Below, piece after piece: positions 7,586 to 43,861 of a stretch of 64,000 nucleotides of DNA. How positions within the stretch are numbered: position 1 is the first letter of the stretch; each line of letters opens with the position of its first letter. The position numbers and the translations under genes were made by a program. Under the pieces are notes generated by a model. The model was not told the origin of the DNA and did not search any database. It worked only from the letters and a program-made list of their open reading frames with translations. This DNA comes from a virus (Duplodnaviria; Heunggongvirae; Uroviricota; Caudoviricetes): positions 247,248 to 311,247 of IMG/VR virus record IMGVR_UViG_3300038345_000251, one strand, 5' to 3'.

Positions 7586-7589
7586 TTTG

Positions 7590-7674
7590 TCGGAGTGGGG
7601 GGATTCGAACCCCCAAGCCCATTACAGGCACAAGTTCCTTAGACTTGCGTGTCTACCAATTCCACCACACTCCG
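7590..7674 (-). tRNA. tRNA-Leu(AAG)
   Basis: class II Leu body, CAAGT-CT AAG GA-ACTTG. Confidence 0.9.
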
Positions 7675-11817: not shown

Positions 11818-11825
11818 TAAATTTG

Positions 11826-11900
11826 TGTGCCCTGAATGAATCGAACATCCGCATTTTCTGGGACGTAAATCCCATTGGTCTGCCACTAGCCTAAAGACAC
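11826..11900 (-). pseudogene. atypical tRNA-Val(UAC)-like RNA with a 6-nt anticodon loop
   Basis: TGGGA-TTTACG-TCCCA, extended variable region. Confidence 0.5.
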
Positions 11901-17272: not shown

Positions 17273-17344
17273 GTGATGTATATAGGAATCGAACCCATCT
17301 TGTCACGTTTAGAGTGTGCCGTTCTACCGATGAACTAATACATC
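17273..17344 (-). tRNA. amber suppressor tRNA(CUA)
   Basis: GATGTAT/ATACATC-A, D and T arms canonical, loop CT CTA AA; anticodon stem has only 3 central pairs. Confidence 0.75.
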
Positions 17345-33566: not shown

Positions 33567-34508
33567 TTATATTATTGATTTTACAAATTTCCATATATAT
33601 CCTCCACATGTTTTTCTTTTTTGGTTACAACAATGTGAAATGTGTTCACGTCTTATATTAAGACTTCTACTTGCTTCACCAATTGATTTATAAATTTTTA
33701 TTAAATTACCATCAATCGAATATTGTCCGACTTGTTTATTAAACGAAGTGTCTGTAAAATCACGTTTTTTCATGTGCGAAAACACTTCTTCTTGCCAATT
33801 ATTTTTACGAATAATTTGATAAGCTCTTGAATTACTATCAGCAAAACTTTTAATAGTATTATATTTTTTTGCTATTTCAATACAATTTTCTTTAGTGTAA
33901 ACGTTTCCGTATGGATTACCACCAAGTGTACCTGTTTTAGCAATATTTAATATAATCCAACCATTTTCTTTATATATTTTTACATATTCAGTTTCTAATT
34001 TAGATGCTTCTTCCTTAATAACATAATCAGTTAATTGTTTTGGTGAAGGTATTGATATATTATTATTTTTAGAAAAAATATAAACAACACTTTTTTTATC
34101 TTTTCTGTGTTGTAAATCTCTCATCTTTAAATTAAAAGTTAACCCTATATACGAATATTTTTTTTCATTAATTATAAATTCATATGCATAAATACATCTT
34201 TTATATTTACTACCAGTTTTTTTTAACTTTTCTAAAATATTATTCCATTTATTATTACGTATAACGGTATACATTGATAAATTTTCATTTACAAAATCAT
34301 TAAGATATTCATATTTGGATACTTTTTCAATACATTCATTAATTGTATATTTTTTGTGTTTTTTTCTTTTTAAATGAGATAATAATTCATTCCACCCATT
34401 TCGTCTTATGACTGTTACTATTGATTTATTAATATTTGTGATTTCTTCTAATGTAGTAAAATCTTTTACAAAATTTTCACAATATTCATATGTATATATT
34501 TTTTTCAT
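33567..34508 (-). CDS. free-standing GIY-YIG/NUMOD1 homing endonuclease
   Basis: CIYAY..YIGLT; C-terminal KQVGQYSIDG..SIGEASR..CGGYIW. Confidence 0.8.
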   Translation of the reverse strand: MKKIYTYEYCENFVKDFTTLEEITNINKSIVTVIRRNGWNELLSHLKRKKHKKYTINECIEKVSKYEYLNDFVNENLSMYTVIRNNKWNNILEKLKKTGSKYKRCIYAYEFIINEKKYSYIGLTFNLKMRDLQHRKDKKSVVYIFSKNNNISIPSPKQLTDYVIKEEASKLETEYVKIYKENGWIILNIAKTGTLGGNPYGNVYTKENCIEIAKKYNTIKSFADSNSRAYQIIRKNNWQEEVFSHMKKRDFTDTSFNKQVGQYSIDGNLIKIYKSIGEASRSLNIRREHISHCCNQKRKTCGGYIWKFVKSII

Positions 34509-34560
34509 GGCACTATGTATTTTTATATAAATATTTTAAAATAAAGAAAAAAAACAAATT

Positions 34561-36951
34561 TTATTTATTCAATACTCTTGAAATGTTATTTTCTTTAATT
34601 ATAGTTACAACACCACCATTGTGCCAATCTAAAATATCCGTTAAATGTGTAATATGTAAAACATAATCAAAATAAGGAATAATTTTATCATAAAGTTTTT
34701 TCACTGCATCATAATTTTCCTTTGCTACACCGCCTAATACTTCATCTAACAAAATCATTGGTGGTCTACTAAGCATTGACATATTACCTAAAACAACACG
34801 AAGTGCAAGTGAAGCAACTGTTCTTTCAAAACCTGATGCTGCATTAAGTTTACATTTAGCACCGTCACGTTCCATGATAAAATCAACTTCATTTTTATCA
34901 TTCATAATAATTTCAACAGTGAAATCAGCAACATCGTTAAGAAGATTATCCATTTGAGCATTGATAATAGGAAGTGTGTTTCTTAATACAATTTTAGATA
35001 TACCATTTTTACCAATAAGTTCAAGATATAATTTCCAGTCTTTTTCAATTTTTTCCTCATTTTTAATTTTAACAATGATAGATTCTTTTTCAGCAATTGT
35101 TTTTTCATTGGCTTCAATATTCTTCTGTGCAGAAATAATATCATTGTTTAACTTAATACGAATGTTATCTTCTACTTTAAGACTTTCATGTAGCATATTA
35201 ATTTTAGCATCAAGTTCATTATTGAATTTGATTGCTTCTTTATTATCATTTAATTTTTTAACGGTATCTTTTACTTCTTTATATTCAATTCTTTGATTTG
35301 CTAATTTTGTTTCAATGGCTGATACACGTAATTCAAGAGTATTTTTCTTTTTAGCATTTTCTCTTTTAATGTCAATTGCTTCAATTTTCTTTACAAGTTC
35401 TTCTTTTTCGTTATTAAGTTTAATACCTTCTTGAATTAATTCATTGATTTTAGTTTTATTTTCTTCAATTAAATTACTATTATCAACATTTTCAAACTTC
35501 CTACCACAAGTAGGACAATATTCATTATTCTTAAGTTGTTTATTATTATTCTTAAGATTTTCAATATTTGTTTTAATCTTTGCTATTTCGGAAATGACAG
35601 TTTCTTTTCTTGAAACGAAATTCTTATATTCAGTATCTGAATATTCAAAATCTTTAATATCAGATATTTGTTTTTCAAGTTCTTTTTTTAAGTTACTATC
35701 GTTTTTACCATTTTCTAATATTGTATTAAGTTTTGATTCTAATGTTGTTACATCTAATTTTGTATTAATTGTTGTATCTATAACTTTCTTTTCTGAAGTA
35801 TAACGTTTAATGTCTTCGTTATAACGTGTTATTGTTGTTTCAGAATCAGAAAATTTACGTTTGTTATCTTCTATCTCTTTGTTAAGAGAAGTATTAGAAT
35901 CATTAAGTTCTTTAATTTCCTGTACTAAAGTTTCTCTATTATAAACATCACAATATCTACCAACAGAAATTTTTTTGTTCCAAATTTCTCTTGCTACAAT
36001 ATTTTTATCTTCCAAACAAGATAAACCAATCCATCTTGAAAGCAATCTTCCTCTATCCGTTTTTTTAAGAGAAATAAGTTCATCAAGGTCTTTCATATTG
36101 GCTGAAATTATAAGGTCAAAATCATTTTCATCACCAATTGCCTCTTTGATTACTTTACTGGTTGCTTTTGCTGTTTGTTCCTGAAGATTGTCAATATCAG
36201 CCAATTCTTCTTGTTCACCTGCTTCATTTATACGATAATACTCTACTTTTTGGGAAGCACTTCTAAGTTCTTTTTTAGATTTACCTGCTCTTTTAAGTGT
36301 TCGTTTAATAACATAGTCAGTACCATCAATAGTTATACAACCTTCTACTTTTAATTCTGTTTCGTTTGGAAGATGTATATTGAACAATTGTCCAAGTTCA
36401 TCATCTGCTTTGCCAGAATGTGTTCTGCCAAAGAAAAGAAAGTGAAGGAGGTCATATGCAAATGTTGATTTACCACTCTTATTTGCAGGTTCACCATTAA
36501 GTAAAACCAAACCATGTAATTGAGTAAAATCAAAATGATTATTTGAACCATAGGAAAGAAAATTACTCCAGTCAAGCCATTTTACTGTATATCGTTTACC
36601 TTTTTCATATTTATCAAAATCAATTTGGTTATTAACCATTGAATCAATTGAAACAATAGCATCCCAATCATAATTTTCTATTTCGTTATCTGTTAAATAT
36701 TGTTTATAAAGTTGATGATGAAAATTAACGTCAGTAATGTTTTTAATATTATCAGCGTTTAATGCAACATCACCATTTGTCGTAAGTTTTTTAAAGTTTT
36801 TTTCGACAATAATATTTTTTATAGGAATATTATATTTTTCAGCAAATATTGTTTTAATGTTTTTCTCATTTTCTTTAGTATAATCAATGGGTGAAACATT
36901 CCAAACAATACATACTTTAGCATCTTGTCCTATTTCTATTTTCTTTTCCAT
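34561..36951 (-). CDS. SbcC/Rad50/gp46-like SMC ATPase
   Basis: NKSGKST Walker A, coiled coil with CPTC hook, ASGFE, LLDEVLG, HITH. Confidence 0.88.
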   Translation of the reverse strand: MEKKIEIGQDAKVCIVWNVSPIDYTKENEKNIKTIFAEKYNIPIKNIIVEKNFKKLTTNGDVALNADNIKNITDVNFHHQLYKQYLTDNEIENYDWDAIVSIDSMVNNQIDFDKYEKGKRYTVKWLDWSNFLSYGSNNHFDFTQLHGLVLLNGEPANKSGKSTFAYDLLHFLFFGRTHSGKADDELGQLFNIHLPNETELKVEGCITIDGTDYVIKRTLKRAGKSKKELRSASQKVEYYRINEAGEQEELADIDNLQEQTAKATSKVIKEAIGDENDFDLIISANMKDLDELISLKKTDRGRLLSRWIGLSCLEDKNIVAREIWNKKISVGRYCDVYNRETLVQEIKELNDSNTSLNKEIEDNKRKFSDSETTITRYNEDIKRYTSEKKVIDTTINTKLDVTTLESKLNTILENGKNDSNLKKELEKQISDIKDFEYSDTEYKNFVSRKETVISEIAKIKTNIENLKNNNKQLKNNEYCPTCGRKFENVDNSNLIEENKTKINELIQEGIKLNNEKEELVKKIEAIDIKRENAKKKNTLELRVSAIETKLANQRIEYKEVKDTVKKLNDNKEAIKFNNELDAKINMLHESLKVEDNIRIKLNNDIISAQKNIEANEKTIAEKESIIVKIKNEEKIEKDWKLYLELIGKNGISKIVLRNTLPIINAQMDNLLNDVADFTVEIIMNDKNEVDFIMERDGAKCKLNAASGFERTVASLALRVVLGNMSMLSRPPMILLDEVLGGVAKENYDAVKKLYDKIIPYFDYVLHITHLTDILDWHNGGVVTIIKENNISRVLNK

Positions 36952-40142: not shown

Positions 40143-41009
40143 TTATTTTGTTATCTGACGATAAGCAAGTTTCATTTTCTTGGTACATTTCTTAAGAATC
40201 TGTCTTACTCTTTCGCCTGACATACCTACTTCTTCACCAATATCATTATAATTTGGAATTGCATTATCTTTATAATCGCCAATACCATAACGCATTTCAA
40301 TAATTTTCCTGTCTTTAGTGTTAAAGATAGATAACATTTTTTCAATCATGTATGAAGTATAATCATTTTCGATTTCAATTTCATACTCATTTCTATCAGC
40401 AGTCTTTGTAATATATTCCTTTGAATTTTCAAAAGTATTTGATTCATTATCATCAAAGGTACTATTGATTGATTCAGTTTTTACATCATATAAATCACTT
40501 TCACACTGAATTTTAACGCCATATTTTTCTTGAAGAATTTCAATGACTTCAGATTCAGTAGGGTATCTACCATTTTTGCAATAGTAAGAATTATTAATAG
40601 AACTAAGTTTAGTACTGACTTTTGAATTGTTAGTACGTCTTACTAATAGGTTATCATTAACCAAATAGTAATTAATACTTCTACGAATATACCAGACAGC
40701 ATAACTAAGGAATCTGTTAGGCCGTTTAACGTCATAGAAGTCAATTGCTTGCATAAGACCAATGTTACCTTCACTTACTAAATCCAGTAATTTATCATCT
40801 GTCGTATAACATTTCGCAATAGAGAAAACAAATCTTAAGTTACTCTTAATTAGTTTTTCTCTTGCTTCTTCATCCCCATTCTTAACTTTGAGTATAAGTT
40901 CATCTTCCTCTTTTTCAGTTAAAACAGGATAGTTTTTAATGTCATGCAAATAATCTGCAATACCTCTTGTTCTTTCCAAGTAAGAACCACCGTAAACTTT
41001 TAAATCCAT
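40143..41009 (-). CDS. sigma-70 family RNA polymerase sigma factor (2)
   Basis: LIKSNLRFV, DLVSEGNIGL, FLSYAVWYIR, IGEEVGMSGERVRQI. Confidence 0.9.
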   Translation of the reverse strand: MDLKVYGGSYLERTRGIADYLHDIKNYPVLTEKEEDELILKVKNGDEEAREKLIKSNLRFVFSIAKCYTTDDKLLDLVSEGNIGLMQAIDFYDVKRPNRFLSYAVWYIRRSINYYLVNDNLLVRRTNNSKVSTKLSSINNSYYCKNGRYPTESEVIEILQEKYGVKIQCESDLYDVKTESINSTFDDNESNTFENSKEYITKTADRNEYEIEIENDYTSYMIEKMLSIFNTKDRKIIEMRYGIGDYKDNAIPNYNDIGEEVGMSGERVRQILKKCTKKMKLAYRQITK

Positions 41010-41422
41010 GAATTTGTCTTTAGTTTTGTTTTAAGTTGTGTTGCTACAATATAATCATAGTCTGCAATTTCATCTTTATAAAGAAAACCAATAAAGACGC
41101 TATCTTTGTTTTTTTGCGTTTCCTTTATATAAGCATTAATATTGGAAGCAGAACGTAAAATATCGTTTAAGACGTTTAAATTAGGGTCTTTATCTATATC
41201 ATACGTTTCAATCTTATAAATTGTTTCTTTATAAAGTTTATCAAAACTACTATTTTTATCAGCATATGGAACACTAAAAAGAGCAGCAAACAAAAACATA
41301 GCCATAGAAATTATTGCAATAATAACATCTAATATACTACTATTGGATGGTTTAAAAATTATTCTAATAATAATCAGTGCAATTAGAATAACTATTGGAA
41401 TAATAATAGATAAACAATGCAT
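41000..41422 (-). CDS. hypothetical membrane protein
   Basis: two N-terminal hydrophobic segments. Confidence 0.55.
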   Translation of the reverse strand: MHCLSIIIPIVILIALIIIRIIFKPSNSSILDVIIAIISMAMFLFAALFSVPYADKNSSFDKLYKETIYKIETYDIDKDPNLNVLNDILRSASNINAYIKETQKNKDSVFIGFLYKDEIADYDYIVATQLKTKLKTNSWI

Positions 41423-41425
41423 AAT

Positions 41426-42055
41426 TTATTTTGATTTTAAACGTTTTTTAAGTTCAGGGAATTCTTTAAGAATTTCTTTCATTTTATTCATATAATATTC
41501 AAAATCAGAGTTTGCTCTTTTAAGTTTTTCTTCTTTTGAACTATTGTCAATTTTTTCCCAAACCATACCATCAGTATTAACCTGATAATCACCTGCTGTA
41601 ATACCACCCTTATCCATATAATTAAAAATAAGGCTAATAATCAGTACAAGGTTTTCCACAATATAAAGGTACAATCCCCACCAATAATCTTCAAGTTCTT
41701 TAGGGTATTGTTTACCAAGAGGACTTTCTTCAGTTCCTGGAACAAAATCACCATAATGTCCAAGAATCATAGCAACGTCTTCCATAACATAAGTTCCACC
41801 AAACAAATTCCACTGATTAATTCCCCATGCATGACATTCTTTTTTATCTGACAAAACTTCAAGATGCTCCTGTGCACGATTAAGATAATCTCTAAGTTTT
41901 CCAAATTTTCTCATGTTTTCGTTAGAATTTTCAATTTCATTGATGGCGTCCACAAGTGGCGAAATATCATATAAATCACCAAGTTCAAAAGTTTCAAACT
42001 TAATATTTTTAATAAGTTTGATGTGGTCTTCAGTAAGTGTTAGTTTCTTTTTCAT
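41426..42055 (-). CDS. hypothetical protein
   Basis: 209 aa ORF in operon. Confidence 0.6.
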   Translation of the reverse strand: MKKKLTLTEDHIKLIKNIKFETFELGDLYDISPLVDAINEIENSNENMRKFGKLRDYLNRAQEHLEVLSDKKECHAWGINQWNLFGGTYVMEDVAMILGHYGDFVPGTEESPLGKQYPKELEDYWWGLYLYIVENLVLIISLIFNYMDKGGITAGDYQVNTDGMVWEKIDNSSKEEKLKRANSDFEYYMNKMKEILKEFPELKKRLKSK

Positions 42056-42249
42056 AATATAATATCTTTAATTTCAGTTAATTTTTCTTCTTTCTTTTCT
42101 TTATCGTTTATAATATCAAATATTTTCTGAATCTTATTCACGTCTTTAGAAAGCACATAACCATCTTCTAAAATCTTCCCACAATATGATAAAATACGGT
42201 TAAGTTGAATATGCACAATTTGTGCCATAGTTTCTTCATTAAATTCCAT
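42052..42249 (-). CDS. hypothetical protein
   Basis: 65 aa ORF in operon. Confidence 0.5.
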   Translation of the reverse strand: MEFNEETMAQIVHIQLNRILSYCGKILEDGYVLSKDVNKIQKIFDIINDKEKKEEKLTEIKDIIL

Positions 42250-42770
42250 TTTCGTTTCTTGTTAAAATTTTTATTGCTTTTTCAATGTCTTTATCAGATA
42301 TTCCATTTTCTTCATCTGTTTGAATAAAATTATCTTTTTGTCCTAACAACATATCAGTATCATCATCAAAAATAACAAATTCATAATCTATATCTTCTTC
42401 GTGGTAATGTTTTCGATAATACGGTTCACCATCATAATCATTACCATATTTTGTACCCATACCACCAAAATTAACTCGCAGCCATTTTTCAATCTCATTA
42501 CCCCTACAAATCCAATCTTCATAATAATGGTCTGTGTAACCAATAATTGGTACTTCTAATCCACACCCCTGTAGTGATTTTTCAGTTCTTCCATTGTCAT
42601 AACCCCACGAAGATGATATGACAATTTCTGCACCAATTTCATTCAATTTATTTAATTTCTTAACACAGTCAGTGTCTATACGTCCATAGCATTTACTTGT
42701 AGTAAGTACACCATCAATGTCAAAGGAAGACGATACGTTTGTAGTATCGCCCTGAACCGTCTACGGACAT
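42239..42770 (-). CDS. HAD-family phosphatase (RNA-repair 'Swiss Army knife'-like), needs a +1 frameshift at CTT-TGA-C
   Basis: frame 0 MSVDGSGRYYKRIVFL, then +1 frame DIDGVL..IVISSSW..VIFDDD; joined it reads VFLDIDGV. Confidence 0.7.
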
Positions 42771-42780
42771 TTTTAAATTT

Positions 42781-43503
42781 TTATTTGTGTTGTTCATATA
42801 TTTTATACTTTCTTGTTAAATAAATTTCTTTATTTCCTTGGTATATAAAGTTTAAAAATTTTAAAGAATCTTTGTACCAATGTTGTTTAAAAACATTATT
42901 TTTATTTTTTGTTACTGAAAACATTTTAACACTTGTTATCTGATATTTTTCTTCTAAAAATTCGTTTATGAAATTTAAAATTTCTTTTGTTGAAATTAAA
43001 TTACAACGTAAACGGTTTTTATTTATACCACACAAAGAAATCGAACCATCCCCATCAAATAATCCTGCAATAAAATATGAATATAGTTCTTCTTCAATTT
43101 TTGGAAATTCACATTTATCAGATTTTTTATTTGTGATTCCTTTTTCAATTATATTATTAACAAACAATTCGTTTGTAATTTGTATTGAATATTCATAATA
43201 TGTTTTATCTGTTCTTTTGTCGTGATAATTAAAATTAGATATTTTATGCTCTGATTTAATATCTGTTTTGAATTTTTCAAGTATTTCTAAGTCTTTACAT
43301 ATAATTGTTAATTTATTATTATTTTTATTTATAGAACCATCAGCAGTAATAAAACCAAGCCAATATGCTTTTTTAGGTGTATCTATTGTTTTAAAATAGT
43401 CAATATCAATATTAAGTTTTGACATATTTAGTCTTGATTTTTTTCGTTTTATTCCATATTTCCTTAAAACACTTCCAATTCCTCCAGGTGTTAATCCAAA
43501 CAT
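42781..43503 (-). CDS. LAGLIDADG homing endonuclease
   Basis: YWLGFITADGS and FIAGLFDGDGS motifs; frame stays open about 39 codons upstream of the ATG. Confidence 0.88.
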   Translation of the reverse strand: MFGLTPGGIGSVLRKYGIKRKKSRLNMSKLNIDIDYFKTIDTPKKAYWLGFITADGSINKNNNKLTIICKDLEILEKFKTDIKSEHKISNFNYHDKRTDKTYYEYSIQITNELFVNNIIEKGITNKKSDKCEFPKIEEELYSYFIAGLFDGDGSISLCGINKNRLRCNLISTKEILNFINEFLEEKYQITSVKMFSVTKNKNNVFKQHWYKDSLKFLNFIYQGNKEIYLTRKYKIYEQHK

Positions 43504-43586
43504 TTTTCCAATTTCTTTTTGGGATAATGTTTTGGATAATTCAATAATTTTTTCGTCTCTTTTTTTAATTTCTATGTTTTTTATAT

Positions 43587-43634
43587 CTAAAAAAACAACA
43601 TTTTTAGAAATACCAATCGTTTATAGTCTTTCAT
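43587..43634 (-). CDS. short ORF MKDYKRLVFLKMLFF*, a probable orphaned 5' end of the HAD gene
   Basis: ATGA overlap with the upstream stop; YKRLVFL matches YKRIVFL. Confidence 0.5.
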   Translation of the reverse strand: MKDYKRLVFLKMLFF

Positions 43635-43861
43635 TCTAATACTGATTTAAATAAACTTCTAACTGTTCGAAATAAAAGTACAAATATATGAAATATTACT
43701 CTTAAAATACCAAAAAGTAAATATAAAGGCCAAAAAAGAACTTTTGAAACAACTAAAGTATCTTCATCTAAACTAAGTTCATCAGCCCATTTAAATCCAG
43801 CCAATGAAAAGATACCGATAAGAAAATATATAAGACAAATGCAAATAATTTTTCCAAACAT
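43631..43861 (-). CDS. hypothetical membrane protein
   Basis: 76 aa, hydrophobic. Confidence 0.55.
   Translation of the reverse strand: MFGKIICICLIYFLIGIFSLAGFKWADELSLDEDTLVVSKVLFWPLYLLFGILRVIFHIFVLLFRTVRSLFKSVLE

What the first reader, a model, noticed from the sequence alone, without database searches (positions are those of the whole stretch)
42239..42770. RF2-type CUU-UGA-C +1 frameshift site needed to make the HAD phosphatase
Seen: ATG at 42770 gives MSVDGSGRYYKRIVFL, ending CTT TGA C (42725-42719). A +1 shift continues GAC ATT GAT GGT, completing the catalytic FLDIDGV motif and a 176-aa protein. A GCGATAC/GTATCGT hairpin lies just upstream. Known: CUU-UGA-C is the programmed shift site of prfB, where shifting competes with RF2. 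Inference: expression of an RNA-repair-type phosphatase may sense RF2 or termination status. No prfB-like internal Shine-Dalgarno is evident.
Basis: partly seen in the sequence, partly recalled or inferred. Interest (0 to 1): 0.7.

Follow-up and report, generated by a model that had tools for sequence, protein, structure and literature searches.

The report
Hairpin-linked +1 frameshift in phage phosphatase
A giant rumen phage can make its HAD-type phosphatase only if the ribosome slips forward one base at CUU-UGA-C, and the same slip site with an RNA hairpin just before it recurs in at least five diverged relatives, so it looks deliberate and not like a broken gene or a sequencing error.

Summary
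The HAD_SAK_2 phosphatase gene (minus strand) is split at CTT TGA C (42725-42719). Reading +1 rebuilds ...KRIVFL|DIDGV..., which aligns without a gap to uninterrupted homologues.

It is not a simple indel or an assembly error. The same 53-nt block (hairpin plus UUC CUU UGA C) occurs in 8 distinct assemblies from at least 5 lineages. The block is 87-92% identical where both flanks are only 50-67% identical. All 8 keep a complete downstream frame, with dN/dS 0.13-0.50.

A 9-10 bp hairpin ends 1-2 nt before CUU in 8 of 8 frameshifted alleles and in 0 of 14 in-frame alleles. It shows one compensatory pair.

- ORF0 probably starts at 42797.
- The hairpin is probably the stimulator. An upstream hairpin next to the E site replaces the prfB Shine-Dalgarno at CUUUGA in vitro (PMC6321510).

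In the window the cassette arrived together with a LAGLIDADG homing endonuclease gene. A relic of the original 5' end lies at 43634-43587. This recalls the T4 mobA/gene 60 cassette.

RF2 sensing and the slip itself are untested. Read data could not be obtained.

The scan has noted prfB-type sites in phage release-factor genes on other DNA, but not this cassette. Best reading: programmed +1 frameshift, confidence about 0.65.

The parts
42723..42797 (-). ORF0: 25-codon leader MNNTNKNLKMSVDGSGRYYKRIVFL. It encodes the true N-terminus (strand beta-1) of the phosphatase and overlaps the homing endonuclease gene's 3' end by 17 nt. It ends at CTT, followed by TGA at 42722-42720.
   Evidence: The upstream ATG is conserved in all 8 frameshifted alleles; the second ATG is lost in L027 and L016. 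The AlphaFold model puts strand E9-16 directly before D17.
42727..42753 (-). Upstream hairpin. 5' arm 42753-42744 (AGGGCGAUAC), loop 42743-42737 (UACAAAC), 3' arm 42736-42727 (GUAUCGUCUU). It is 9-10 bp and ends 1-2 nt before the CUU codon, so its 3' end lies in the E-site codon UUC. Proposed stimulator of the shift.
   Evidence: Present in 8/8 frameshifted alleles (-13 to -18 kcal/mol) and absent in 14/14 in-frame alleles (0 to -6). There is one compensatory pair (window U-A, others G-C). The 5' arm is a 12-nt insertion absent from the in-frame relative L030.
42719..42725 (-). Shift site CUU UGA C, preceded by E-site codon UUC (42728-42726). Peptidyl-tRNA-Leu is proposed to re-pair from CUU to UUU, so that GAC is read next.
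   Evidence: The 17 nt CGUCUUCCUUUGACAU are invariant in all 8 alleles. The junction aligns without a gap to FLDIDG of in-frame homologues.
42239..42721 (-). ORF1: 160 codons plus stop, starting at GAC (D17 of P0001). It holds HAD motif I DIDG, SSSWG, and the DDD motif. Its stop overlaps the start of the next gene (ATG 42249).
   Evidence: dN/dS against other frameshifted alleles is 0.18-0.29. The nearest solved folds, all weak matches, are mostly HAD-superfamily (MDP-1, lipin/Pah, Nir2 C-terminal domain, TIM50).
42781..43503 (-). LAGLIDADG homing endonuclease gene (240 aa, two LAGLIDADG motifs) directly upstream of ORF0. It is absent from the closest in-frame relatives and from the other frameshifted lineages.
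   Evidence: PF14528; phrog_4645, E 1e-48. Searches show the relatives lack it. A 53%-identical homologue in L035 also sits directly upstream of another HAD gene that starts MNEKIIFLDIDGT.
43587..43634 (-). Relic of the original 5' end of the phosphatase gene: mini-ORF MKDYKRLVFL+KMLFF*. Its first 29 nt are homologous to the start of the in-frame relative L003 (MKDYRRICFL). Homology stops at TTTCT. A second VVFLDI-coding relic follows at about 43601-43581.
   Evidence: Removing 43605-42723 (883 nt) would give GTA TTT CTT GAC ATT, an in-frame gene. The endonuclease gene and the ORF0 cassette therefore entered as one block.

Best explanation
This is a conserved programmed +1 ribosomal frameshift cassette at the 5' end of a jumbo-phage HAD-fold (HAD_SAK_2) phosphatase gene.

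Proposed mechanism:
- Ribosomes start at ORF0 (42797) and translate 25 codons that encode the real N-terminal beta-strand.
- They reach UUC CUU UGA C with CUU in the P site and the poorly terminated UGA-C in the A site.
- A fraction of them slip one base forward (tRNA-Leu moves from CUU to UUU), read GAC, and go on to make the full enzyme, whose catalytic DxD motif begins at the first +1 codon.
- Ribosomes that do not slip release a 25-residue peptide.
- The GC-rich 9-10 bp hairpin, whose 3' arm ends in the E-site codon, is proposed to re-form behind the ribosome. It would take the role that the internal Shine-Dalgarno duplex has in prfB. That suits a host whose genes do not use SD.
- Yield should depend on RF2 activity at UGA-C.

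Shown here: the sequence anatomy, conservation of the block, strict co-occurrence of hairpin and shift site, selection on ORF1, and linkage to a homing endonuclease insertion in this phage.

Inferred: the slip itself, the hairpin's stimulatory role, RF2 dependence, and that the extra base also protects the allele against the endonuclease.
For: 1. Recurrence. The same site and leader occur in 8 distinct sequences from separate studies: the window (identical in L008), L009, L010, L012, L016, L026, L027 and L028.
2. Conserved island. The 53-nt block is 87-92% identical between lineages whose flanks on both sides are 50-67% identical. No change falls in the 17 nt around the shift site. Changes cluster in loops.
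3. Hairpin. It is predicted in 8/8 frameshifted alleles (-13.2 to -17.8 kcal/mol, local GC 0.49-0.55 in a 29.6% GC genome) and in 0/14 in-frame alleles (0 to -6.2). There is one compensatory change, U-A to G-C, and L016 gains a loop-closing G-C pair.
4. In-frame comparison. The in-frame long-leader relative L030 (SVN-DYKRIIFLDIDG) lacks exactly the 12-nt 5' arm, the GC-rich 3' arm codons and the extra T.
5. ORF1 is kept. It is complete (152-165 aa) in all 8 alleles, with the catalytic motifs intact. dN/dS is 0.13-0.50, including 0.21-0.36 in five of the six pairs (0.50 in L010-L012, 19 changes) of the L010/L012/L026/L027 family, whose members share both flanks.
6. ORF1 cannot work alone. It has no start codon before motif I, and strand beta-1 (residues 9-16, pLDDT about 91) is encoded by ORF0.
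7. Experimental precedent. In an E. coli 70S in vitro system, a stable upstream hairpin placed next to the E site mimics the internal SD and stimulates +1 frameshifting at CUUUGA (PMC6321510).
8. No SD use. There is no SD enrichment upstream of 324 phage ORFs (11, against 18-22 in controls). The start context is A-rich.
9. Single copy. The cassette occurs once per genome, only at this gene.
Against: - No expression, peptide or read-level data were available.
- Frameshifted alleles are a minority, about 7 of the 120 best protein clusters.
- They are interleaved with in-frame alleles on the tree. At least 4 changes are forced, and L012 is 98% identical downstream to in-frame P0020. The cassette is therefore gained or lost by recombination and is not indispensable.
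- Spread by endonuclease-driven gene conversion into intact genes could keep ORF1 looking intact without function.
- Only one fully compensatory base pair supports the hairpin. Z-scores against shuffles are modest, -1.2 to -3.1.
- By my own knowledge of prfB, CUU UGA C without its SD shifts at only a few percent in E. coli.
- A stem ending 1-2 nt from the P-site codon must be melted while the ribosome sits on the site.
Confidence: 0.65

Rival explanations
1. Selfish disrupted allele. The cassette is the flank of a homing endonuclease element that has been copied into intact phosphatase genes by gene conversion. The extra T simply breaks the gene, the phosphatase is dispensable, and ORF1 looks intact because each invasion is recent. 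The block is conserved because it is young, or because it blocks cleavage by the endonuclease, and not because ribosomes shift on it.
For: - In the window the endonuclease gene and the cassette form one 883-nt block inserted into an L003-like gene, with a relic of the old 5' end left upstream.
- Similarity between the frameshifted L012 and the in-frame L032 breaks exactly at the shift site.
- The trait is scattered on the tree.
- A homologous endonuclease gene in L035 also abuts a HAD gene's 5' end.
Against: - Only 1 of 5 lineages carries the endonuclease gene. L009 has the cassette in the native position with no relic and no endonuclease gene.
- Both flanks of the block have diverged to 50-67% identity while the block stays at 87-92%. 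That argues for age plus selection, not recent spread.
- The stem change is compensatory.
- dN/dS is well below 1 within a family that shares the cassette and both flanks.
- A broken gene would not be expected to keep YKR(L/I)VFL in frame 0, a stop exactly after Leu, and a one-base offset in every lineage.
Confidence: 0.17
2. RNA-level repair. In the window, the 883 nt between the relic exon (ending ...UUUCU) and UGACAUU are removed as an intron that carries the LAGLIDADG ORF. This would give an in-frame mRNA with no frameshift.
For: - Precise removal of 43605-42723 restores MKDYKRLVFL-DIDGV in frame.
- LAGLIDADG genes often reside in group I introns (established knowledge).
Against: - No group I or group II intron model matches 42500-43800 even at E up to 10.
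- The insert does not end in G (group I), and it does not begin GUGYG or end AY (group II).
- L009 has no upstream exon copy. L016's upstream ORFs have no family match, and L028's upstream region is cut by the contig end. Splicing therefore cannot rescue L009, yet all three keep the same block and an intact ORF1.
Confidence: 0.05
3. The hairpin block has a different primary function, and the frame break is tolerated or incidental. The hairpin with its U-rich tail could be an attenuator, a terminator or an RNase site that controls the downstream operon (65-aa, 209-aa and 140-aa ORFs, then a sigma factor). ORF0 would then act as a leader peptide.
For: - A GC-rich stem is followed by UUCCUUU.
- The ORF0 stop lies in that tail.
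- The downstream genes overlap start to stop, down to the sigma-70 gene at 40143-41009.
Against: - The scan for terminator-like sites does not call it.
- ORF0 encodes the homologous N-terminus of the enzyme, not an arbitrary leader.
- The one-base offset that rejoins the enzyme's frame is invariant.
Confidence: 0.08

Closest known systems
Bacterial prfB (RF2) autoregulatory +1 programmed frameshift (SD-N3-CUU UGA C)
   Same: - Identical heptanucleotide CUU UGA C.
- Early position in the gene (codon 25-26, as in prfB).
[quoted passage not shown]
- A duplex-forming element immediately 5' of the E/P sites.
- Expected competition with RF2.
   Different: - The gene product is a phosphatase, not RF2, so there is no autoregulatory loop.
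- There is no internal Shine-Dalgarno.
- An intramolecular 9-10 bp hairpin sits where the SD:anti-SD helix would be.
- The E-site codon is UUC, not UAU.
- It occurs in only a minority of homologues and moves as a cassette.
Engineered upstream refolding hairpins that stimulate +1 frameshifting at CUUUGA (Huang et al. 2018, PMC6321510; Cho et al. 2013, PMC3639245)
   Same: A stable hairpin next to the E site, upstream of CUUUGA, acts as a functional mimic of the internal SD on 70S ribosomes. The geometry is the same as here.
   Different: Those were synthetic 12-bp GC hairpins, tested in vitro without RF2. This case would be a natural, evolutionarily conserved counterpart with a weaker stem, and it is untested.
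Phage T4 mobA homing endonuclease plus the gene 60 50-nt translational bypass element, a mobile cassette (Bonocora et al. 2011, as summarised in PMC5009743)
   Same: - A homing endonuclease gene inserted into a phage gene travels with an adjacent recoding element.
- The recoding element interrupts the target sequence.
- The interruption is compensated at translation.
- The insert is thought to protect against the endonuclease.
   Different: - The recoding here is a one-base +1 slip, not a 50-nt hop.
- The endonuclease is LAGLIDADG.
- The endonuclease gene is present in only one of five cassette lineages.
- Protection from cleavage is not tested.
HAD_SAK_2 (PF18143), the HAD phosphatase domain of 'Swiss Army Knife' RNA-repair proteins; T4 Pnkp phosphatase domain as functional analogue
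   Same: - Pfam match above the cut-off.
- DxDG nucleophile motif, SSSWG and DDD motifs.
- Capless HAD-like fold.
- A phage with a large tRNA cluster.
   Different: It is a stand-alone 176-aa protein with no kinase or ligase partner seen next to it. Its substrate is unknown. PHROG lists the family as of unknown function.

Membership tests
prfB-type +1 programmed frameshift site | Heptanucleotide CUU UGA C, with the 0-frame stop in the A site and the +1 frame continuing the protein | tested here: met
   42725-42719; the +1 reading aligns without a gap to FLDIDG.
prfB-type +1 programmed frameshift site | Internal Shine-Dalgarno sequence 3 nt upstream of CUU | tested here: not met
   the 12 nt upstream read CGUAUCGUCUUC. 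The nearest AGGG is 24 nt away. The phage's genes show no SD use. A hairpin occupies this place instead.
prfB-type +1 programmed frameshift site | Conservation of the site across diverged homologues | tested here: met
   8 sequences in at least 5 lineages; the 17 nt around the site are invariant. It is present in only about 6% of the homologue clusters examined.
prfB-type +1 programmed frameshift site | Product is RF2, giving autoregulation | tested here: not met
   The product is a HAD phosphatase. The phage has no RF gene.
prfB-type +1 programmed frameshift site | Measured +1 shifting that responds to RF2 level | not testable with these tools
   Needs reporter assays or proteomics.
HAD_SAK_2 (PF18143) / HAD superfamily phosphatase | Profile match above the curated cut-off | tested here: met
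   68.4 bits against a cut-off of 27.5, residues 13-100; phrog_1818, E 5e-28.
HAD_SAK_2 (PF18143) / HAD superfamily phosphatase | Motif I hhhhDxDG after strand beta-1, motif II Ser/Thr, and an acidic motif IV | tested here: met
   IVFLDIDGV (joined), the invariant SSSWG, and D135/D136/D139 invariant within FDDDTD. Strand E9-16 precedes D17. The top fold matches are mostly HAD-superfamily but weak, E 2e-3 to 1e-2.
Homing endonuclease plus recoding element mobile cassette (T4 mobA/gene 60 type) | Endonuclease gene and recoding element adjacent and inserted together into a host gene | tested here: met
   In the window, an 883-nt block with a relic 5' end upstream. This is not so in L009, L010, L016 and L028, which lack a recognisable endonuclease gene.
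Homing endonuclease plus recoding element mobile cassette (T4 mobA/gene 60 type) | The recoding insert renders the allele resistant to the endonuclease | not testable with these tools
   Needs cleavage assays on in-frame and frameshifted target DNA.
Group I / group II intron carrying a LAGLIDADG ORF | Ribozyme core and canonical splice-site nucleotides | tested here: not met
   No Rfam intron match at E up to 10. The insert ends in U, not G, and does not begin GUGYG.

The most novel reading that the evidence does not exclude
This is a natural +1 frameshift device in which an RNA hairpin next to the E site replaces the Shine-Dalgarno stimulator of prfB. It would have evolved in phages of SD-independent (Bacteroidota-type) hosts. 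It arose, or is kept, as a 'saviour indel': the extra base destroys the recognition site of a LAGLIDADG homing endonuclease that targets the FLDIDG-coding DNA of HAD genes, and the ribosome repairs the frame. Expression of an RNA-repair-type phosphatase would thereby become dependent on RF2 activity.
Probability: 0.3. Interest if true: 0.8.

Novelty: new variant of a known kind. Interest (0 to 1): 0.7.

Why it matters
As far as I know, and in the papers I could search, prfB-type +1 frameshifting is described in bacteria almost only for the RF2 gene itself, and always with an internal Shine-Dalgarno. A conserved CUU-UGA-C site in an unrelated phage enzyme, paired with a hairpin where the SD helix would sit, would be a natural counterpart of an effect so far shown only with engineered hairpins (PMC6321510).

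It would show how frameshift stimulation can work on ribosomes that do not use SD pairing. It would also be a second example, after T4 mobA/gene 60, of a homing endonuclease travelling with a recoding element.

In practice, gene callers truncate these genes. The database holds them as 135-159-aa proteins that lack the catalytic aspartates. Recognising the cassette corrects the annotation.

Tried and rejected
- Sequencing or assembly error: rejected. An independent Logan assembly is identical, and seven other assemblies carry the site.
- Alternative genetic code: rejected. Reading TGA as sense gives L-W-H-W-W-C-T-Y-Y-K-stop, unrelated to the homologues. Long ORFs are intact under code 11, and internal TAG/TGA lie mostly at ORF ends.
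- Internal initiation of ORF1: rejected. The first start in that frame is the TTG at 42646, 25 codons after motif I.
- Transcriptional slippage: unlikely. The T run is only 3 bases (sequence; established knowledge of slippage on runs of 6 or more).
- Simple 1-nt indel against the closest relatives: the relatives L003 and L004 are in frame, but they lack the whole cassette.
- Intron: no Rfam match.
- Intrinsic terminator: not called.
- Repeated or mobile small element: the covariance model R1 finds one copy per genome and none in five related jumbo-phage records apart from L012's own. In-frame loci score 27 bits or less, against 92-98 bits for the cassette.
- Searches that gave nothing: GenBank phages by megablast; species genomes by pattern; extra viral-contig patterns beyond L012. 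The JGI metagenome scan gave one extra locus, L016.
- Pfam on the ORFs upstream of the cassette in L009, L010 and L016: no family.
- PDB search by sequence: no significant match.

Full report
**1. What the window is**

The window is bases 247248-311247 of a 392,823-bp IMG/VR virus record. The genome is 29.6% GC and has 23 tRNA genes. Related contigs come from bovine and rumen metagenomes. The finding lies on the minus strand, in a run of tightly packed genes that ends with a sigma-70 gene at 40143-41009.

**2.

- From ATG 42770 the frame reads MSVDGSGRYYKRIVFL, then CTT TGA C at 42725-42719.
- One base further on, the frame reads GAC ATT GAT GGT and stays open to 42239.
- Read with the single step TGAC=D, the 176-aa product P0001 matches Pfam HAD_SAK_2 from residue 13, across the junction (68 bits, cut-off 27.5). 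It matches phrog_1818 over residues 10-173.
- It aligns without a gap at the junction to uninterrupted homologues of 165-185 aa (YKRIIFLDIDGV).
- An AlphaFold model (pLDDT 78.6) places strand beta-1 at residues 9-16, directly before D17. ORF0 therefore encodes a structural element that the catalytic DxD motif needs. The nearest solved folds are mostly HAD-superfamily members, though the matches are weak.
- The ORF1 frame has no start codon before the TTG at 42646.

**3. It is not an error and not a private mutation**

An independent Logan assembly (L008) is identical.

However, several database homologues of about 150 aa start downstream of motif I. I fetched DNA for L009, L010, L026, L027 and L028. 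All have the same ...CGUCUCGUCUUCCUUUGACAU site and the same leader M..K(M)SVxGSGRDYKRLVFL-stop. Pattern scans added L012 (IMG/VR) and the much more diverged L016 (JGI).

That makes eight distinct sequences in at least five lineages. Each has a complete ORF1 of 152-165 codons with DIDG, SS(S/T)WG and the DDD motif intact.

L027 and L016 lack the second ATG, so the conserved start is the upstream one. In the window that is 42797, giving a 25-codon ORF0.

**4. A conserved island**

Between lineages, the 53-nt block from GUCCGUA to GACAU is 87-92% identical. The 60 nt upstream, the next 240 nt upstream, and the 150 and 290 nt downstream are 48-75% identical, mostly 50-67%.

The 17 nt around the shift site never vary. 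The changes lie in the hairpin loop, in a bulge, in one variable codon, and in one stem pair that changes on both sides: window U-A, all others G-C.

The stem GGGCGAGAC/GUCUCGUCU (9 bp, or 10 with A-U) ends in the E-site codon UUC, 1-2 nt before CUU. Folding the 47 nt before the Asp codon gives -13.2 to -17.8 kcal/mol in 8/8 frameshifted alleles and 0 to -6.2 in 14/14 in-frame alleles.

The in-frame relative L030 has the long leader SVN-DYKRIIFLDIDG. It lacks exactly three things: the 12-nt GGTTCAGGGCGA that makes the 5' arm, the GC-rich codons of the 3' arm, and the extra T. Hairpin and shift site therefore come and go together.

**5. Is ORF1 used?**

dN/dS of ORF1 between frameshifted alleles is 0.13-0.50. 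Within the L010/L012/L026/L027 family, whose members share the cassette and both flanks, five of the six pairs give 0.21-0.36; L010-L012 gives 0.50, on only 19 changes. This argues that the frame is expressed while the cassette is in place.

The caveat is recombination. On a tree of the ORF1 part, the trait needs at least 4 changes, and L012 is 98% identical to in-frame P0020. Aligning L012 with P0020's DNA (L032) shows near-identity downstream of GAC and a sharp break exactly at the shift site. The 5' module is therefore exchanged between alleles.

**6. The homing endonuclease link**

- 43634-43587 reads MKDYKRLVFL-KMLFF-stop. Its first 29 nt are homologous to the start of L003 (MKDYRRICFL), and homology ends at TTTCT.
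- Removing 43605-42723 (883 nt: endonuclease gene plus ORF0 cassette) would restore GTA TTT CTT GAC ATT.
- So in this phage the endonuclease gene and the frameshift cassette entered a naive in-frame gene as one block.
- A second fragment coding VVFLDI lies just after the relic. I read it as a possible trace of an earlier insertion.
- A 53%-identical endonuclease homologue in L035 also sits directly upstream of another HAD gene that starts MNEKIIFLDIDGT. This fits an enzyme family that targets the conserved motif-I DNA.

The known parallel is T4 mobA with the gene 60 bypass element. There the recoding insert is thought to protect against the endonuclease (Bonocora et al. 2011, as summarised in PMC5009743).

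However, L009 carries the cassette in the native position without an endonuclease gene or a relic. The other lineages also lack a recognisable endonuclease. The cassette therefore persists without it.

**7. Mechanism**

The site is the prfB heptanucleotide. There is no internal SD, and the phage's genes show no SD enrichment: 11 of 324 ORFs, against 18-22 in controls. The start context is A-rich at -14 to -12 and has A at -3. From my own knowledge, that pattern is typical of Bacteroidota-type translation.

Huang et al. 2018 showed in an E. coli 70S system that a stable upstream hairpin next to the E site mimics the internal SD duplex and stimulates +1 frameshifting at CUUUGA (PMC6321510; see also PMC3639245). 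The geometry here is the same.

I therefore propose hairpin-assisted +1 slippage of tRNA-Leu from CUU to UUU, in competition with RF2 at UGA-C. RF2 dependence is an inference from prfB. The phage encodes no release factor.

The phage does encode tRNA-Leu(AAG), which would read CUU. Whether it is the shifting tRNA is unknown.

**8. Rivals**

- A selfish disrupted allele spread by gene conversion is the main rival. It is weakened by the age of the flanks, the compensatory stem change, dN/dS, and persistence without the endonuclease gene.
- An intron reading fits the window's arithmetic, but it has no Rfam support and no canonical ends. It cannot apply to L009.
- An attenuator or terminator role is not called by the scan, and it does not explain the invariant one-base offset.
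- The cassette is single-copy per genome.

**9. What is known**

Full-text searches found no description of a CUUUGA site in a phage enzyme gene or of this cassette.

The scan itself has noted prfB-type sites in phage RF1-like genes and a CUU-UGA hop in a nuclease gene, on other DNA. Those are different genes and genomes.

**10. Verdict**

- The programmed-frameshift reading is well supported by comparison, but it is untested at the bench.
- The RF2-sensor idea remains open.
- I rate this a new variant of a known kind, with interest 0.7.

Noticed in passing
window 43503-43634 (minus strand): The LAGLIDADG frame is open for about 39 codons upstream of its ATG (…NVVFLDIKNIEIKKRDEKIIELSKTLSQKEIGK-M…). 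By eye, that stretch resembles the helix-turn-helix N-terminus of the 270-aa homologue in L035, but it has no in-frame start. That would put a recoding event on each side of the endonuclease gene.
   Followed up: partly
L035:2429-3591: A 53%-identical LAGLIDADG homologue (270 aa) overlaps by 4 nt the start of a different, in-frame HAD gene (MNEKIIFLDIDGT...). This endonuclease family seems to home next to the motif-I DNA of HAD genes.
   Followed up: partly
window 7589-7674 (minus strand): A phage tRNA-Leu with anticodon AAG, which would decode the CUU of the shift site. CTT is the second most used Leu codon in the phage (2833 uses, against 3393 for TTA).
   Followed up: no
window 17273-17344 (minus strand): An amber suppressor-type tRNA (anticodon CUA). 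TAG ends only 23 of 324 long ORFs. A few long frames have internal TAG (for example genome minus-strand frame 34455-35436, in reverse-complement coordinates, codon 155), but there is no genome-wide recoding signal.
   Followed up: partly
window 11825-11900 (minus strand): ARAGORN calls a tRNA with a two-letter 'anticodon' (ta).
   Followed up: no
whole genome G000 (324 ORFs): There is no Shine-Dalgarno enrichment upstream of start codons. Instead the context is A-rich at -14 to -12, with A at -3 and T at -1. This points to a host with SD-independent initiation (Bacteroidota-like).
   Followed up: partly
L010:1130-1399, also in L012, L026 and L027: An 89-aa ORF with no family match lies between the upstream gene and the cassette. 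It is absent from the in-frame sibling L032. It begins ATG TAT AAA ... TTT CTT (MYKAGDFL), which may be a relic of an older phosphatase 5' end, like the relic in the window.
   Followed up: partly
window 40143-42249 (minus strand): ORF1's stop overlaps the next start. The following 65-aa, 209-aa and 140-aa ORFs and the sigma-70 gene overlap or abut one another. Translation of the sigma factor operon may therefore be coupled to the frameshift.
   Followed up: no
P0043 (272 aa, 235 member sequences): One abundant homologue cluster carries a roughly 100-aa N-terminal extension in front of the HAD domain. I did not examine it.
   Followed up: no
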